Positions 39,001-45,000 of a stretch of DNA of 64,000 nt are shown here, in pieces; the stretch's first letter is position 1, and every line of letters begins with the position of its first letter. This DNA is from a candidate division WOR-3 bacterium (lineage in GTDB: Bacteria; Hydrothermota; 32-111): contig JBBFKX010000001.1 in assembly GCA_037481815.1 (NCBI GenBank), positions 32,001 to 96,000 of the forward strand, in the 5' to 3' direction. The position numbers were made by a program.

Positions 39001-42000
39001 ATAAAAAACCAGACAATAACATAAAACGGAGAGAGCCCACCAGTTAAGGAAAGATGTTCTTTGGGAAGGTTTTCTTTTAAAATATTAAAGTCCCCAATGT
39101 TTTTGTAAGAGAATAAGAAAAGAAAAATAAACCCAAGAAACATAACGAAAAATTGAAAGAGATCCGTTTTTACATCTGTGACAAAACCACCTTTGAGTAT
39201 GAACGGAAGGATGATCAAAAGTGATATCAGCATCGAAACAAACAGGTTTAAAGAAAAGATTTTTGAAAAGATTATTCCTATCATCAAAATGTAAGGTGCT
39301 GGTGAAGAGAGAATCAAAACGATTATCGCTGACAGAATTGAAATCTTTTTGTCATACTCTTGTTCGATCTTTTGAGGGATCGTGAGAAGTGATGTCTCTC
39401 TTATCCTTTTAGCGAAAAGTATAGCGAAAAGAAATCCAAAAAAATAGTAAGGGACTCCCTGTGTCACCCAGTTGACGATACCATAATTATAGGTGAACTC
39501 TCCTACACCGAGTATTCCACCATACCATGTTGATACATTTGTTGCTATGAAAAGGAATAGTCCGGTTTTCCTGCTGTTGATCAAAAAAGAATCTTTCCCT
39601 TTCACATTTTTTGATGCAAAATAGGAAATCATTAACAGAAAAAAGAAAAATAAAAAAATCACAAAAATATCTAAACTCTGGATCATAATTTTAAATTATA
39701 GTAATTTAGAAGGATTATTCAAGGGAAGAAAAATTTTTTGTTAAACTCACAACAAATTTTAATTTTTCATAAGAACAATACATACAACTATTGACTTTTT
39801 AAAAAGGTCATTTAAAATTTAAATCATAAAAGGAGGTATTATGAAGAGTATTTCAAAAATTCTAACTATCGCCCCCCCCGATACTTACAGATAGTTTTTG
39901 TTTTCATTTTAGGTTTTGCATTAATTTTTTGTTTTGGAGATAACTTGAGTATTGAAGACATCAATTGTTGGGATTATAGTGATTTAAGTTTTGAATTAAA
40001 TTTAGATAATATTCAACAAGATGGTAATGATTATGGAGAAATTTCATGGAGTTTTTGCTATGGAATTGAAAAATCAATCTATAAATTAAAACATAAATAT
40101 GATTTTGAAATCGCTAATTCTATAGCGAATAATATAAATTTAATCTTATCTTTAAGGGATGATCGAAGAGGAGTCCATAGTTATATAGATAGCAGTGGAA
40201 CAGAAAGAACATTAAAAACATGGAGAGGGTTAAAATATTCATTGATTGAAAGAAATGATTCATTGTTTACCTATAATATCCATATATGTGGTTATGACTC
40301 TTCCTTGGATCGTTTTATTTATTATGGACCTTCTCATGGAATTCCTGCAAAATATTTTGCTTACCCAGATCTGGTTTTAACAGGAAGAATTTTACAAACA
40401 ATTTTAAGATTTGTAATTGCAATGGACACTATTGGCAAATGGGATGAAATTGGAGGTTGGTCTTACAGGTCAAAATTGATATATGATTGTAAAGAGAGTT
40501 ATAATGAATATATTCAATGGTTTCAGGATACAACAATAAATAACGATTCATATTGTGGGGCGTGGAAACACATATTTGATGTAATTGATATTAACTTTAT
40601 AAATGATGAAGTTAAAATTGACACTTTTTACCCACAATATCCTTTTAGAGCAAAGATGAGGCACCCTTTTAATAAAAATTCAACTATGGCAGATGCGGGA
40701 CTATTTCTTTATGAGCTCACAAAAGAAAATATATATTTAGAACAGACGAAAAAATTTGCTCATTATTTCAGAAATAACATTGATGACTCTACTTTTGTTT
40801 TTGGAAATGGCACTGATTCCACCTTTCTCTGGGCATATTCTGTCAATTATGTTAAAGGAAAAGCGGATGATATCTCTCATGGTGGACTTTCATTTATTTT
40901 TATGAACGATTATCACAAAAAATTCCCTGATGATGTTTTTGGAAAAGATGATATGATTAAAATGTTCAATACAATAAAATATTTAATGGTTATTCCTGGT
41001 TCAGAAACTACAGGAAATTATAGTTATTATCCATATCTTGACGGTTCTTATCATGATAGTTTAAAATATTTTCCTTTTTCCTCAGATCTTAAATATCAAA
41101 TGTTTAAATTTTATGGGTTGACTGAATATAAACCCCAAACATTTGAGTTTATTACAGGTATTATTGATAGTTTCAATCCTGAAGACGGTTATTTTCAATA
41201 TTATAAGAGATTTTATACTCCTTTTTCTGTAAAAATAGGAATTTTACCGGTGTCTGTTTTGCCTGTAGATAGTCAACAAATTGAAACTTTTGTAAATGGT
41301 GACAGGGTGTATGTTGAACTTAATTCGTTGTATAATTATACAGGATATAGAGATACCATTGTTATTGAATTATATGATCCAGATAAAAATGCTGAATATC
41401 ATCTAAAGGATACTCTTTACAATGTTTTGAAAGGAATAACATATAAAATTCCCTTTGGTAATTTAGTATTTGATGGAGAAACACTTAAAACAGACACTTT
41501 AGTTGTAAAGGCTTATGCATTAAGAGGTGGAGCGTTAAAATGTCCATTTTTTTCAGATACTTTACCTCTGGTAGCAAGAGATACAGTATATTTGTTTTCT
41601 CCAACTGAAATTTCTGTTCTTAAAAATAATACTTTTAATGTTTATGCTTGTTATCGAAACAAGAATATCGATCTTTTTGGAATAGATAGTGTGAAAATAA
41701 CAATCACTTATGATACGGTAAATGATGATGGGTCAATTGAAAAAGCAACACTAATCAAATACACAGATAGCAATGGAAAAGCATACTTCAATTTAAGAAC
41801 AAATACAACCTATCCAGTAATAATAAGAGCAGATAAATTAGGATATTTTACAGCGGTTGATACCTTGAAACCATTTATGTGGTCAACAACAAATGTTGCC
41901 CTGGGCCCTAGCAGTAGCACCCATCTGGTTAAACAAAATGGGTTACTTCATCTGGCTTATTCTGATGGTGATAGTATTGTATATGGTAGGAGCAAGGATT

Positions 42001-45000
42001 TTGGAAACAATTGGGAACTTAAAAAAATTGGTAGTGGTAGAGATGTTAGTATAACGACAATTTCAGGTGGAATAGCTGCTGTCTGGAAAGATGGAGAAAC
42101 ATGGCAATATGCATATTCAACATCCCCATGGACAGTTCCTTTAATACCGACTGTTATGGGATATCGAAGCCCTTCAATATTAGCGAATCCTGCTAATTTG
42201 TCACAATTATGGTTTGCAGGTATAACAACGGATCATCTGACAATTGATAATCAATGGACATTGCAATATACTTCATTTATGTATAATAATTTAACAATCC
42301 CTGAATTTATTCAACTGATAGGTGAAGAAGGTGAACTGGATAAAAACAATTATCTTGTGAAACCTTATGATTTTTCGTGTATAGGTGTTACCACAACAAA
42401 TAATAAATTAGGACCTGAAATTGTCTTTCAAGATGCAAATGGAGAGATTATTAGAAAAAAGTTTGATGCTACAAAAAATATTTGGCTTATTTCAGAAAAG
42501 GTTTCAAATTCAACTTTTTATTCCTTTAATCCAGATGTTAACCTGAAATCATTTAATGATACCAACAAAATAATTTGGCAGGAATATAATGATTTACATT
42601 TTAGAAATGAAATATATCTTGATAATTCATTTAAAAAAATTGTTGATAATGTTGTTAATGATATGAAATATCCACGTATTTACAATTCAATTATTACATA
42701 TGTTGGAGATGACAAATTGGTCAGAATAAATACTCAAGAATTTTCAAATGAAGTTGAGAATGTAACTTTAAATAAAGGATTGGATAGTTGTTTCTATCCT
42801 GTGTTAGTTGATTCTATATCCCTTTCAATAGGACTTAACCCATCAACTGGGCAGGATGTATATATAAAAAATACTAAAATAAGAGCTTTATGGGTCGAAG
42901 GGCATAATAACCACTATAAAATAGAATGTGGTGGAACAAATTTTAGGATTTATACTGATTCGATCTATCCAATACTGGAAAATCCAAGGAGTATTACTTT
43001 AACTGATACATTAACCAGTATTTCTGAAAGTGTACTGAGAAATTTTTTACCTTCGCCACAGAGTAGACAACCTATTGAAAGATTGAGTGCTCAAATAGAA
43101 TGTCTGAATCCTGCGATGGATTATCTACTTGAAATTATTACGACAAATAATAACAAAAATCAACCTTATGCATTAAGTATAGAAGAAGAATTTGTGAAGC
43201 TTATAGAAGGTAAAGAAAACAGAACATTCTTTGTTCTTGATAAATCAGATTATCAGGATGGAGATATAAAATTAAACATCGATAGGATAAGAGGTAATCC
43301 AAATAGAACCATAAATATTCATCTTTACGAATATGATAAAATAATTAAAGATTTCAGTGCTACTAAAAATAGTTATTTGCAATTTGGAAAAATTAATGAA
43401 AGTGTTGGCGAATTTAAATATAAATGGAGAGGAGCAGGATTTTCAGACAAAAAGATAGAATTTAATTTTTTGCTTCCTGAAAGTGGGTTGATTGAGTTAA
43501 AAATTTTTAATATAATGGGTAGAGAGATTTACTCAAAAAAAATGAATGGTCAGAAAGGAGAAAATATCATAAGAGTTGATGGAAAAACAACTGGTTTGTC
43601 AAGCGGGATTTATTTTTATATATTTGAAAGCAAATATGGAAAAGAGAGGGGTAAGATTGGTTTTATTAAATAGAATTAAGTTAAAAAAATTTTCGGAGGG
43701 AATAAAATTCCCTCCAATAAAATGGATGATACTATTGATATTAATTATTGAAACAATAGCATTATCTGCCGTAATAGAGATAAAACAGGAAATACCATTT
43801 GGAAGTTTTGAACCTAATATTTATTCTCCCATTATTATAAATAGAGAAACGGATACTTTACTGTCAATACTCTGTTATACAGGTGACTATAATAATGCTA
43901 TTTATAAATGGAGTAAATACCAATTTGAATTTTTGGATTTTATTAAAGGTGGTTGGATAAGAGGAACTGGTGATTTTGATAGTGATGGATTGTTGGATTT
44001 AATGGGAATAAATCCTTCAGATAGTAATATGATATTTATAATTGAACAGCTATATAAAGATAGTATAAGTAAAGAGTGGACTTGGAAATTGAAAATGAAT
44101 GAAAATGGGGAATATCATTGTTTTGGGGTTACCTCATTGTTGAAAGGAGATGGGAAAAACAGGATATTTGGAGCGCCGAACCCTAATACAACTTATAATG
44201 ACCCTTATGGCTGGTTTTATATGGATAGCGATAGTGATGATAGTTATTATTTCGCTTACAAAGATACATTTAAAAGAAAAGTTTATGCGATGGATATCGG
44301 ATATATGGACAATGATTCACTTTTAGATATTGTTACAATGACTCATTTAGGACACAAAGTGTATGAATCAAAGAATATGAATCAGGATTCATTTGTTTCG
44401 GTTTTTGACACAACTCTTGCTGGTACTTATTATGTTAAATTAATAGGGGATATTGACAAAGATGGCTATAATGATTATGTATTTGGTGGAAAAGCGTATG
44501 ATCAATCTCCTGCCGAATGGTTACATGACTTGTTTGAATGTGATGGTGACAATCACTATTTTAAAAAATGGAGTCGCTGGCAAAGAAAAGATTATGGACC
44601 ATCAGGTTCAGTGGGAAGTGGTTGTGGGGGAACAGCAGGTGATATGGATGGCGATGGATACGATGAACTGGTTCTTTGTGCTGGATCTATTTTAGAGATA
44701 TTCAAGGTAATGGGAAATGATAGTTTTGAATTGATATGGAGTATGGATAATGATACATTTTCCGGAAGCAGTGTGATAATGGCTGATATGAATGGAAATT
44801 GCAGAAAAGAGATAATATGGAGTGGGGAATCAGACCCTCTTCTCCCATATACATATGGAATAGATATGATGAAGACATATATAATTGAGTGGAGAATGTT
44901 AAATTCTCCGGATACAATAATCTATGGTAATACTATGGTTCCAGATTCTTTAACAAGTGATAGTTTTTTTATTTTCAACGAAGGGAGAGATACAATTTTA

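What a model noticed while it worked through the whole genome (the two positions that open the first line are those of the whole stretch)
39841..43673. Slippery repeats in the signal-peptide region of four paralogous T9SS cargo genes (predicted phase variation)
The genome's only long simple-sequence repeats outside a glycine motif lie 31-67 nt after the start codons of four of five paralogous large T9SS-cargo genes: C8 at C1:71872-71879, G8 at 480417-480424, (AG)14 at 746285-746312, (AG)16 at 842190-842221 (genes C1:71841-75673 +, 477442-480455 -, 742860-746347 -, 839487-842257 -). One unit more or less moves a 922-1277-codon ORF with its signal peptide in or out of frame, so these are predicted contingency loci; all four are off as assembled.
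Evidence so far: Family and domains: calls 14, 23, 59, 139. SSR census of all contigs: call 84 (5 tracts, 4 here; fifth explained in call 93). Frames: 17/20/28/33 aa as assembled, 1277/1004/1161/922 aa after +1 C or -1 CT. Tract polymorphism with identical flanks: C8, C8, C9, C10, C10 in five genomes; (CT)14 v. 15; (CT)16 v. 18. Same layout at 5 of 5 further (CT)n loci in two genera; (CT)>=10 in 7 of 31 genomes.
(Added by a program. Inside this text positions count along the whole contig: contig position 32,001 is position 1 of the stretch shown here. "Call 12" and the like, gene names such as g00115 and contig names such as C1 are that model's own, and its searches are not shown. The text may have been shortened before it was handed on; [...] marks where a part breaks off. 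The agent that wrote the report below was given it as the finding of a first reader that could run no searches.)

Follow-up and report, generated by a model that had tools for sequence, protein, structure and literature searches.

The report
Repeat switches in secreted-protein genes
Four large secreted-protein genes of an uncultivated bacterium each carry a slippery DNA repeat just after the start codon that throws the gene out of frame, the signature of random on/off switching best known from pathogens.

Summary
A C8 run lies at window 39872-39879, 31 nt after a start codon with a strong ribosome-binding site. As assembled the frame stops after 17 codons; one more C opens a 1277-codon gene ending in a type IX secretion (T9SS) sorting domain. 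Three further genes on the same contig have G8, (AG)14 and (AG)16 in the same place. These are four of the genome's five long simple repeats.

In each gene the repeat splits a signal peptide: charged residues before it, the hydrophobic core after it. At gene A the run is C7-C10 across related genomes and metagenome contigs. Four of those genomes show no substitution in 4.1 kb around it. The long frames are under purifying selection (dN/dS 0.2-0.4). The repeats use this genome's rarest Pro and Leu codons.

Best reading (about 0.7): slipped-strand on/off switches, laid out like the 5' CT-repeat genes of Helicobacter pylori, here in a free-living candidate-division TA06 lineage. No raw reads were available, so switching within a population is not shown. 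Only 1 of 23 alleles is in frame, which is unexplained.

Corrections: the fifth paralogue's 5' end is unassembled, and the paralogy is weak and C-terminal. Gene A is near-identical across species whose flanks differ by about 8-30%.

The parts
39791..39818 (+). Promoter-like site TTGACT-16 nt-TAAAAT, 22 nt upstream of the ATG
   Evidence: 10 of 12 consensus matches. Such matches are common in this AT-rich DNA (31 found, 27.7 expected in shuffles). However, the same TTGAC..TAAAAT layout recurs upstream of locus B and of other poly-C loci.
39830..39837 (+). Shine-Dalgarno sequence AAGGAGGT, ending 3 nt before the ATG
   Evidence: An AAGGA/GGAGG-type site precedes the start at all four loci of this genome and at the related loci examined, except L098, which has AAAGGTGG.
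39841..39894 (+). Short frame read as assembled: MKSISKILTIAPPDTYR, then TAG (17 codons)
39872..39879 (+). C8 run, the proposed slipped-strand switch; in frame at C6, C9 or C12
   Evidence: Lengths seen at this locus: C7, C8, C9 and C10 in related genomes and metagenome contigs.
39880..39888 (+). GATACTTAC, invariant flank of the poly-C cassette
   Evidence: Identical in 10 of 10 poly-C loci aligned by the tract. The pattern C7+GATACTTAC was found only in genera g1 (5 of 5 genomes) and g5 (3 of 3) among 121 genomes; the reversed control pattern gave 0 matches in those genomes and 2 elsewhere among the 121.
39841..43673 (+). Gene A: 1277 codons if the run is C9. Hydrophobic signal-peptide core directly after the run, a rare N-terminal domain, a middle region, and a C-terminal sorting domain
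   Evidence: The N-terminal 520 residues have only 8 relatives at E of 0.001 or better among 1.84 billion representatives. The model is weak (pLDDT 58) with faint (alpha/alpha)6-barrel matches.
43464..43658 (+). T9SS type A C-terminal sorting domain
   Evidence: TIGR04183 scores 26.9 bits against a cut-off of 23 in the six-frame search, but 22.6 bits on the protein. Pfam CHU_C 26.6 and Por_Secre_tail 16.7, both below their cut-off of 27.
43693..43717 (.). GC-rich hairpin 20 nt after the stop codon; possible terminator
   Evidence: The scan scored it on the minus strand, where a T-run follows.
39511..43606 (.). Segment (promoter plus nearly all of gene A) that is near-identical in five species-level genomes
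   Evidence: in C1:71511-75606 (4096 nt) there are 2 substitutions, both private to G000, plus the tract indel. Flanks differ by about 8-30% per 500-nt bin. Contigs of runs X5 and X13 diverge exactly before 39511.

Best explanation
These are translational phase-variation (contingency) switches. Each gene has a strong ribosome-binding site and a start codon, then 25-59 nt encoding the positively charged start of a signal peptide, then an uninterrupted poly-C or (CT)n tract, then the hydrophobic core of the signal peptide and a 900-1300-codon T9SS cargo protein.

Slipped-strand mispairing during replication adds or removes one repeat unit. One tract length in three joins the start codon to the long frame, so the protein is exported through Sec and then the T9SS. 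The other two lengths stop translation after 17-47 codons.

The population therefore always holds minorities that display different subsets of these surface or secreted proteins. This is bet-hedging, most plausibly against phages or other agents that target surface proteins, or against the cost of making very large proteins.

Shown here: the anatomy, the frame logic, tract-only polymorphism on identical DNA, purifying selection on the long frames, and maintenance of the uninterrupted repeat. Inferred: the replication-slippage mechanism, reversibility and rate, export, and the selective agent.
For: 1. Anatomy at all four loci. There are 2-4 Lys/Arg before the tract, and a 12-residue hydrophobic maximum (Kyte-Doolittle 2.8-3.3) starts 1-9 residues after it in the long frame.

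2. Position. Four of the genome's five long repeats sit 31-67 nt after such start codons. All four genes pass the TIGR04183 cut-off (44 of 52 matches in the genome pass). A SprA_N match lies above its cut-off, and PorU-like and PorV-like genes are present.

3. Tract-only polymorphism at gene A. G001-G004 have 0 substitutions in 4096 nt but C9, C10, C10 and C8. G001 and G002 differ from G000 in almost the same way in every 500-nt bin of about 30 kb, yet have C9 and C10. Logan contigs of four runs from four studies give C8, C8, C8, C9 with no other difference in 990-1001 nt. Two further metagenome contigs are C8. A 93%-identical copy is C7.

4. Other loci. The C orthologue has (CT)15 against (CT)14. 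The D orthologue differs by +6 nt in and beside the tract.

5. These are not decaying genes. dN/dS is 0.215 over 1262 codons, 0.265 over 468 and 0.40 over 594, for pairs that are off in both genomes. Each gene has exactly one frame break, at the repeat.

6. The repeat itself is kept. CCC is 8.6% of Pro codons and CTC 8.2% of Leu codons, yet the run is uninterrupted at the 12 related poly-C alleles that have long frames. The control C8 in a Gly-Gly-Gly motif is interrupted by synonymous changes in 5 of 5 relatives.

7. The same cassette heads genes with unrelated N-terminal domains. The 5' ends of A and B are 81% identical over about 100 nt, while the proteins align only in their middle and C-terminal parts.

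8. The in-frame state occurs in nature: C9 in G001 and in run X13.
Against: No read-level data. All 20 runs that hold the stretch are kept as contigs, so mixed tract lengths within one population, which is the defining property, were not seen.

C8 is the modal state at gene A (7 of 12 records, some possibly from the same samples), so the tract is not wildly unstable. B and its orthologue are both C8 although dS is 0.38. MutS1 and MutL are present, which should damp slippage at mono- and dinucleotide repeats.

Only 1 of 23 alleles with a long frame is in frame. The nominal probability is 0.0011 if each frame were equally likely, though related genomes are not independent. The simple model does not predict this.

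Length differences between assemblies could include assembly errors, and one orthologue has NN inside its tract.

Signal peptides were judged by a hydropathy heuristic, not a trained predictor. The T9SS sorting-domain score of gene A is borderline.
Confidence: 0.7

Rival explanations
1. Expression mainly by recoding rather than by DNA change. Ribosomes stalled on the run of proline codons (CCC CCC ...) slip by one base, or RNA polymerase stutters on the run, so that the 'off' alleles are leaky. The usual 'one C short' state would then be the normal expressed form.
For: Among poly-C locus groups with long frames, 4 of 5 are exactly one C short of in frame: C8 at A, B and B'; C11 at L099; C14 at L097; C7 at L102. 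The exception is C13 at L098 (and hand reading). An all-C run allows perfect re-pairing of tRNA-Pro in any frame (established knowledge of frameshifting at CCC-C sites, recalled). The excess of off states (1 in frame of 23) would not matter if off were not null.
Against: The direction is not consistent overall. The (CT)n alleles need -1 unit in 6 cases and +1 unit in 5 (counting the identical L055 and L056 separately). Gene A variants C7 and C10 need the opposite shift. No stimulatory RNA structure was found (z = +1.1, 177 of 200 shuffles fold as well). 4 of 5 is weak statistics. RNA polymerase slippage is documented mainly for A/T runs (recalled).
Confidence: 0.1
2. The repeat lies in a short leader reading frame, and the real gene starts after it. 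The leader is translated from the strong ribosome-binding site, and the main frame is started by termination-reinitiation. Tract length then tunes coupling rather than fusing the frames.
For: At locus C the 28-codon frame ends in TGA overlapping an in-frame ATG (ATGA) that opens MRAILITIVIFYGLLCIAS, a complete signal peptide. At D the short frame also ends in ATGA. L059 and L083 have ATG or GTG shortly after the tract. Several poly-C loci have ATG 4 nt before the short frame's stop (reading).
Against: A, B, L057, L058 and L084 have no ATG, GTG or TTG between the tract and the hydrophobic core, so a working signal peptide needs read-through from the upstream start. The internal ATG of D and B lies inside the hydrophobic core. 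No ribosome-binding site precedes the internal starts. Stops in shifted frames of AT-rich hydrophobic-coding DNA are expected by chance.
Confidence: 0.08
3. Nothing functional: frameshifted pseudogenes, or homopolymer and dinucleotide errors of assembly.
For: All four genes are out of frame as assembled. Decayed copies of the cassette exist: an interrupted tract CCCCAACC with a 153-codon frame in G004:C24, a 172-codon frame in G003:C17, and no long frame in G005:C3. NN lies inside one tract.
Against: Frames of 900-1277 codons remain intact in 31% GC DNA, with dN/dS of 0.2-0.4. The break is always at the repeat and nowhere else. C8 is reproduced in at least five assemblies, C9 in two and C10 in two. 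The control C8 keeps its length in 5 of 5 relatives. The uninterrupted repeat is conserved across two genera.
Confidence: 0.07
4. The conserved 5' cassette has a different nucleotide-level role, such as a binding or processing site on DNA or RNA. The repeat would be a spacer or structural element of it, with frame effects secondary.
For: GATACTTAC is invariant in 10 of 10 loci, including synonymous positions. The motif ACAAAATCAGCG after (CT)n in genus g5 is read in two different frames in different genes.
Against: No such factor or structure was found. The cassette could simply be young and spread by duplication or gene conversion. The frame logic and the split signal peptide are fully explained without it.
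Confidence: 0.05

Closest known systems
Helicobacter pylori outer-membrane protein genes sabA and oipA, with CT dinucleotide repeats in the 5' coding region
   Same: A (CT)n tract in the 5' region of a surface-protein gene sets the reading frame on or off by slipped-strand mispairing (PMC5371856, passages read). The layout matches loci C and D here.
   Different: The proteins are unrelated: beta-barrel adhesins there, T9SS cargo with a C-terminal sorting domain here. H. pylori is a host-restricted pathogen; this is a free-living candidate-division lineage found in oil-field, hot-spring, sludge and sediment metagenomes. MutS1 and MutL are present here; their absence from H. pylori is recalled, not checked.
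Neisseria opa genes ((CTCTT)n in the signal-peptide region) and pilC (poly-G in the signal-peptide region)
   Same: The repeat sits inside the signal-peptide coding part of members of a surface-protein gene family, and most copies are off at any time. This is recalled knowledge; no paper was read for it here.
   Different: The repeat unit is a pentanucleotide there, against mono- and dinucleotides here. The proteins and secretion routes are unrelated.
Poly-G/C contingency genes of Campylobacter jejuni, and homopolymeric tracts in prokaryotic genes generally
   Same: G/C runs of about 8-11 within coding regions act as hypermutable switches (abstracts of PMC8437040 and PMC6321876 in the listing). 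Homopolymeric tracts in genes have been proposed as a general regulatory device (abstract of PMC2831843).
   Different: There the switches mostly control surface-glycan modification genes of a pathogen. Here a conserved promoter-to-tract cassette heads large secreted proteins.
Phase variation in Bacteroidota, the best-studied T9SS phylum
   Same: Surface structures vary stochastically.
   Different: The classical mechanism there is promoter inversion by site-specific recombinases (recalled). None of the 15 listed papers contains 'type IX secretion'. The 12 papers holding both 'type IX secretion' and 'phase variation' were seen as listings and abstract starts only, and none appears to describe a repeat in a cargo gene.

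Membership tests
Simple-sequence-repeat contingency (phase-variable) locus | An uninterrupted, slippage-prone repeat within the reading frame or promoter | tested here: met
   C8, G8, (AG)14 and (AG)16 lie 31-67 nt after the start codons.
Simple-sequence-repeat contingency (phase-variable) locus | A change of one repeat unit switches a long frame on or off | tested here: met
   17, 20, 28 and 33 codons as assembled. By arithmetic on those coordinates, +1 C or -1 CT gives 1277, 1004, 1161 and 922 codons. In-frame lengths are listed.
Simple-sequence-repeat contingency (phase-variable) locus | Tract length differs between close relatives while the flanks are identical | tested here: met
   Gene A shows C7-C10. 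G001-G004 have 0 substitutions in 4096 nt. Four runs show no other difference in 990-1001 nt.
Simple-sequence-repeat contingency (phase-variable) locus | Frequent, reversible switching within one clonal population | not testable with these tools
   Only assembled contigs of public runs could be laid; there is no culture.
Simple-sequence-repeat contingency (phase-variable) locus | The gene is kept functional (not a pseudogene) and the repeat is kept uninterrupted | tested here: met
   dN/dS is 0.2-0.4. The repeat uses disfavoured codons yet is conserved across two genera. The control tract is not conserved as a run.
T9SS cargo protein | C-terminal sorting domain (TIGR04183 / PF18962) | tested here: met
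   six-frame search: A 26.9, B 30.9, C 34.2 and D 29.1 bits against a cut-off of 23. On the protein, A scores 22.6. Pfam scores are below the cut-off of 27 for all four, so the domain is divergent.
T9SS cargo protein | N-terminal Sec signal peptide | tested here: inconclusive
   The charged residues and the hydrophobic stretch are there, split by the tract. This was judged by a hydropathy heuristic only; no trained predictor was available.
T9SS cargo protein | T9SS machinery encoded in the genome | tested here: inconclusive
   SprA_N scores 30.5 bits, over its cut-off. PorU-like 227 bits and PorV-like 131 bits are both under their equivalog cut-offs. The GldK/L/M/N homologues were not searched.
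Programmed frameshift or transcriptional-slippage gene | A fixed direction of shift and a stimulatory element | tested here: not met
   Both directions are needed among alleles. There is no RNA structure beyond shuffles.
H. pylori Hop-family CT-repeat genes | Homology to Hop outer-membrane proteins | tested here: not met
   Pfam finds only the sorting domain, LVIVD repeats or nothing. The resemblance is one of mechanism, not descent.

The most novel reading that the evidence does not exclude
The promoter-SD-start-tract-flank unit is a portable switch module, conserved at the nucleotide level. It has been placed in front of unrelated T9SS cargo genes within one family of candidate division TA06. 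It is held almost always one step from 'on', possibly with leaky expression by ribosome slippage on the proline run. Together with gene A it has recently swept across species-level lineages in oil-field, hot-spring and sludge communities. That would make it a mobile contingency cassette in free-living, uncultivated bacteria.
Probability: 0.2. Interest if true: 0.75.

Novelty: new member of a known kind. Interest (0 to 1): 0.55.

Why it matters
Repeat-driven on/off switching of surface proteins is textbook biology for host-adapted pathogens, where immune pressure explains it. Here the same device, down to CT repeats inside the signal peptide, appears in a small-genome, uncultivated candidate-division TA06 lineage from subsurface and engineered anaerobic habitats, on type IX secretion cargo.

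If it holds, three things follow. First, bet-hedging by contingency loci is also a strategy of free-living environmental bacteria, presumably against phages or grazers. Second, 'frameshifted' large genes in genomes assembled from metagenomes should not be dismissed as pseudogenes or errors. Third, tract lengths in metagenome reads could serve as a direct read-out of which surface proteins a natural population is displaying.

The near-identity of gene A across diverged species adds a testable case of very recent gene flow of a surface-protein gene.

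Tried and rejected
- Within-sample heterogeneity: read laying worked, but all runs are kept as contigs. Each run showed one tract length, which says nothing for or against mixed populations.
- RNA structure around the tract: the minimum free energy is no better than shuffles (z = +1.1). The ACTATC/GATAGT inverted repeat of locus A is absent from locus B, so it was rejected.
- Function of gene A's N-terminal domain: Pfam and NCBIfam give nothing besides the sorting domain. 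The PDB sequence search gave one chance-level hit. The Atlas feature search scored 0.84 or below, which is lead level only. The AlphaFold model from 8 sequences is weak (pLDDT 58), and its best Foldseek matches are (alpha/alpha)6-barrel glycoside hydrolases at TM 0.25-0.37. This is a faint lead, not an assignment.
- Shorter G6/C6 runs near the 5' ends of frames in this genome are GGGGGG ribosome-binding sites or a tRNA end, not cassettes.
- (CT)n loci in more distant families (G096, G064, G099, G047) do not share the layout: they have short frames or a 5'-UTR position. Only G054 does. They were not counted as support.
- Dropped before the on/off count, and why: L093 (no long frame after the tract), L032 (frame of 172 codons), L033 (interrupted tract, 153 codons) and L043 (NN in the tract).
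- Complex prediction was not used; no binding claim is made.

Full report
WHAT IS IN THE WINDOW

At window 39830-39837 lies AAGGAGGT, followed by ATG at 39841. Thirty-one nt later comes an uninterrupted C8 run (39872-39879), then GATACTTAC. Read from the ATG, the frame gives MKSISKILTIAPPDTYR and stops at TAG 39892-39894. The frame displaced by one base is open from just after the run to 43673 (1242 codons from the first TTG). With C9 the ATG would head a 1277-codon protein.

A promoter-like TTGACT-16-TAAAAT lies at 39791-39818, and a GC-rich hairpin follows the stop. Such promoter matches are no more frequent here than in shuffled sequence, so they count only because the same layout recurs at related loci.

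THE OTHER THREE LOCI AND CHANCE

The window is G000:C1:32001-96000, from a 1.58-Mb genome of 20 contigs and 31% G+C. My own census of all contigs finds G/C runs of 8 or more at only three places: C1:71872 (this one), C1:480417 and C2:135298. No dinucleotide repeat exceeds 6 units except (AG)14 at C1:746285 and (AG)16 at C1:842190. Base composition alone predicts about 1.2 G/C runs of 8 or more, so the runs are remarkable for their position, not their number.

At B (TTG 480455), C (ATG 746347) and D (ATG 842257), all on the minus strand, the coding strand carries C8, (CT)14 and (CT)16 respectively. Each lies 31-36 nt after a start codon preceded by AAGGAGG or AAGGAAG. The frames as assembled stop after 20, 28 and 33 codons, and a displaced frame runs on for about 900-1150 codons. 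If the roughly 44 T9SS cargo genes each offer a 100-nt target, the chance that 4 of 5 tracts fall there is about 2e-11 (a rough figure).

The fifth tract encodes the Gly-Gly-Gly of VGGGIKD at residue 208 of 253 in an intact frame.

A SPLIT SIGNAL PEPTIDE

At all four loci the peptide before the tract carries 2-4 Lys/Arg. In the long frame, a 12-residue hydrophobic maximum (Kyte-Doolittle mean 2.8-3.3) begins 1-9 residues after the tract. The tract itself would add Pro-Pro(-Pro) or (Leu-Ser)n. The start codon and charged region thus lie on one side of the repeat, and the hydrophobic core and mature protein on the other. This is a heuristic reading; no trained predictor was at hand.

WHAT THE GENES ARE

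All four pass the NCBIfam cut-off for the T9SS type A sorting domain in the six-frame search: A 26.9, B 30.9, C 34.2 and D 29.1 bits against a cut-off of 23. The domain is divergent, however. On the protein, A scores 22.6, and Pfam scores are below threshold for all four.

The genome has 52 matches to this domain, 44 of them over the cut-off. It also has a SprA_N match above its cut-off, and PorU-like and PorV-like genes below their equivalog cut-offs.

'Paralogous' needs qualifying. A aligns with the others at 26-31% identity, only over middle and C-terminal modules. C has LVIVD repeats, and B and D have no other Pfam domain. The N-terminal 520 residues of A have only 8 relatives among 1.84 billion representative proteins. 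A weak model (pLDDT 58, pTM 0.67) resembles (alpha/alpha)6-barrel glycoside hydrolases only faintly (TM 0.25-0.37).

The fifth paralogue (C1:851484-855596, minus strand) runs off the contig end. Of the five genus genomes searched it was found in two, G003 and G004, and there too it breaks at a contig end. The tally is therefore 4 of 4 assessable genes.

TRACT-ONLY POLYMORPHISM

The five genomes of the genus hold gene A with C8 (G000, G004), C9 (G001) and C10 (G002, G003). G004's contig is titled candidate division TA06 bacterium 32_111.

In C1:71511-75606 (4096 nt) the five genomes differ by only 2 substitutions, both private to G000, plus the tract. G001-G004 have no substitution at all, yet carry C9, C10, C10 and C8. 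G001 and G002 differ from G000 in almost the same way in every 500-nt bin of about 30 kb, but differ from each other by one C.

Logan contigs of four runs from four studies (labelled crude oil, sludge, sediment and hot spring) cover the stretch with no other difference in 990-1001 nt. They give C8, C8, C8 and C9. The tool warns that some of these runs may be the sources of these genomes. Two more metagenome contigs are C8. A 93%-identical copy is C7.

At C, the G003 orthologue has (CT)15 against (CT)14. At D, G002 has two extra T and (CT)18 against (CT)16, a net +6 nt and therefore the same frame. G003 has NN inside its tract.

Contigs cannot show mixtures within a sample, so the defining property of phase variation remains untested.

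A CONSERVED CASSETTE

The pattern C7+GATACTTAC occurs at 12 places in 9 of 121 sampled genomes of the phylum, all in genera g1 (5 of 5) and g5 (3 of 3). The reversed control pattern gave none in those genomes and two elsewhere among the 121.

Aligned by the tract, 10 loci share the following:
- an AAGGAGG-type ribosome-binding site (AAAGGTGG at one, L098);
- a start codon 25-31 nt before the run;
- the invariant 9 nt after the run.

The rest of these 5' regions is much more diverged. The 5' ends of A and B are 81% identical over about 100 nt, although their N-terminal protein domains are unrelated.

(CT)10 or longer occurs in 12 of 121 genomes. In the family of G000 (genera g1 and g5) all 8 loci examined have the same layout. 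One locus in a distant family (G054) does too. The loci in G096, G064, G099 and G047 do not.

After the CT tract, genus g5 keeps ACAAAATCAGCG-like bases that are read in two different frames in different genes. This points to a nucleotide-level constraint or to recent spread of the cassette, and I cannot explain it.

THE GENES ARE ALIVE AND THE REPEAT IS SELECTED

For pairs in which both alleles are out of frame:

| Pair | dN/dS | Codons |
|---|---|---|
| A v. the 93% copy | 0.215 | 1262 |
| B v. its G001 orthologue | 0.265 | 468 |
| C v. its G003 orthologue | 0.40 | 594 |

(All.) Each gene has one break only, at the repeat.

CCC is the rarest Pro codon (8.6%) and CTC a rare Leu codon (8.2%) in this genome. 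Even so, the runs are uninterrupted at all 12 related poly-C alleles with long frames. By contrast, the control C8 in the Gly motif is broken by synonymous changes, at constant length, in 5 of 5 relatives. This also argues against random homopolymer errors in these assemblies.

Decayed copies of the cassette do exist: an interrupted tract with a 153-codon frame in G004:C24, a 172-codon frame in G003:C17, and none in G005:C3.

ON AND OFF STATES

Among alleles with a long frame, 0 of 11 (CT)n alleles (8 loci) are in frame. So is only 1 of 12 poly-C alleles (G001's C9, with L098 read by hand). Adding the contigs, C9 also occurs in run X13.

One in-frame allele of 23 has a nominal probability of 0.0011 if the three frames were equally likely. 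Related genomes are not independent, so the true figure is weaker; 0 of 8 loci gives 0.039.

Both off frames occur among the CT alleles: 6 need one unit fewer and 5 need one more, counting the identical L055 and L056 separately. The poly-C groups are mostly exactly one C short (4 of 5 groups).

The simplest account is that the in-frame state is selected against in the bulk population and survives in minorities, as in multi-copy surface-protein families of pathogens (recalled). Leaky expression from off alleles is an alternative that I cannot exclude.

MECHANISM AND RIVALS

I favour slipped-strand mispairing at the DNA level as a translational on/off switch (0.7). MutS1 and MutL are present, so rates are probably moderate, which fits the modal C8. 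The rivals are:
- Recoding on the proline run (0.1). It is supported only by the 'one short' tendency. Against it stand the inconsistent shift directions and the absence of RNA structure.
- A leader frame with termination-reinitiation (0.08). This is plausible at locus C, where ATGA joins the short frame to an internal start with a complete signal peptide. It is not possible at A, B, L057, L058 or L084, which have no start codon before the hydrophobic core.
- Pseudogenes or assembly error (0.07).
- Some other nucleotide-level function of the cassette (0.05).

COMPARISON WITH WHAT IS KNOWN

The layout is that of H. pylori sabA and oipA, whose on/off status is set by CT repeats in the 5' region through slipped-strand mispairing (PMC5371856, passages). 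From memory, it also matches Neisseria opa and pilC. Poly-G/C contingency genes of Campylobacter, and homopolymeric tracts as a general device, are in print (abstracts).

I found nothing linking such repeats to T9SS cargo, to TA06 or to WOR-3:
- None of the 15 listed papers contains 'type IX secretion'.
- The 12 papers with both 'type IX secretion' and 'phase variation' were seen as listings and abstract starts only.
- Searches gave nothing relevant.

Subscription journals are not covered by these searches. This is a new member of a known kind: the mechanism is classical, while the lineage, habitat, secretion system and conserved cassette are new.

THE IDENTITY ISLAND (SIDE FINDING)

Gene A with its promoter is essentially identical in five species-level genomes. 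The sodium:solute symporter gene to its left and the genes beyond about C1:80000 differ by about 8-30% per 500-nt bin. The two downstream T9SS cargo genes (an FG-GAP and an LVIVD beta-propeller protein) are 92-100% identical bin by bin.

In run X5, three contigs meet at window 39511-39540. This is what an assembly graph shows when several co-occurring lineages share one downstream sequence. Twenty runs from 15 studies hold the stretch.

This looks like very recent gene flow of a switch-bearing surface-protein gene. Bubble-collapsing by assemblers could exaggerate '100%', but it could not create the contrast with the flanks.

Noticed in passing
window 39511-48200 (C1:71511-80200): Gene A and its promoter show 0-2 substitutions in 4.1 kb among five species-level genomes, and the next two T9SS cargo genes are 92-100% identical bin by bin. 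The flanking housekeeping genes differ by about 8-30% per 500-nt bin. There is a sharp left breakpoint at 39510|39511, where three contigs meet in run X5. This looks like recent gene flow across species.
   Followed up: partly
L051 (JAWABG010000080.1, 6.9-kb contig): A 93%-identical copy of gene A, with a C7 run, sits on a short contig binned as a Candidatus Woesearchaeota archaeon. This is probably a mis-binned bacterial contig.
   Followed up: no
G000:C1:851484-855596 (outside the window); L103, L104: The fifth paralogue runs off the contig end in G000. It also breaks at contig starts in G003 and G004, the two of five genus genomes where it was found. Its 5' part seems hard to assemble (a repeat?).
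   Followed up: partly
L062, L086-L089 (G096, a distant family of the phylum): Five loci share a cassette: a TTGACAA promoter-like site, ATG, 22 conserved nt, (CT)10-14 and GCGGAAATCAGC. Only short frames (64-97 codons) follow, and two of the loci end contigs. This is a different, unexplained use of CT tracts.
   Followed up: partly
L057-L059, L083, L084 (genus g5): The bases ACAAAATCAGCG(T)TT after the CT tract are conserved but are read in two different frames in different genes, separated by a 1-nt T indel just downstream.
   Followed up: partly
L090 (G064:C27): (CT)13 lies between a near-consensus promoter (TTGACA...TATAAT) and a gene whose own ATG and signal peptide start about 90 nt downstream. 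Here the tract is in the 5' untranslated region rather than in the frame.
   Followed up: no
L043 (G003:C20), orthologue of locus D: Two N lie inside the CT tract of the assembly. This may reflect ambiguity in the reads, or masking.
   Followed up: no
L033 (G004:C24) and L032 (G003:C17): These are decayed copies of the poly-C cassette. One has the run interrupted (CCCCAACC), and both have frames of only 153-172 codons after it.
   Followed up: partly
window 39945-41504 (N-terminal domain of gene A): This is a very rare domain, with 8 relatives among 1.84 billion representative proteins. It has invariant W35, R71, D72, W93, Y264, W296, D309 and H312 in the small alignment, and a faint resemblance to (alpha/alpha)6-barrel glycoside hydrolases.
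   Followed up: partly
G000:C1:1-102 and small contigs C4, C15: Contig ends fall inside T9SS sorting-domain sequences, so assembly breaks tend to occur within this large gene family.
   Followed up: no
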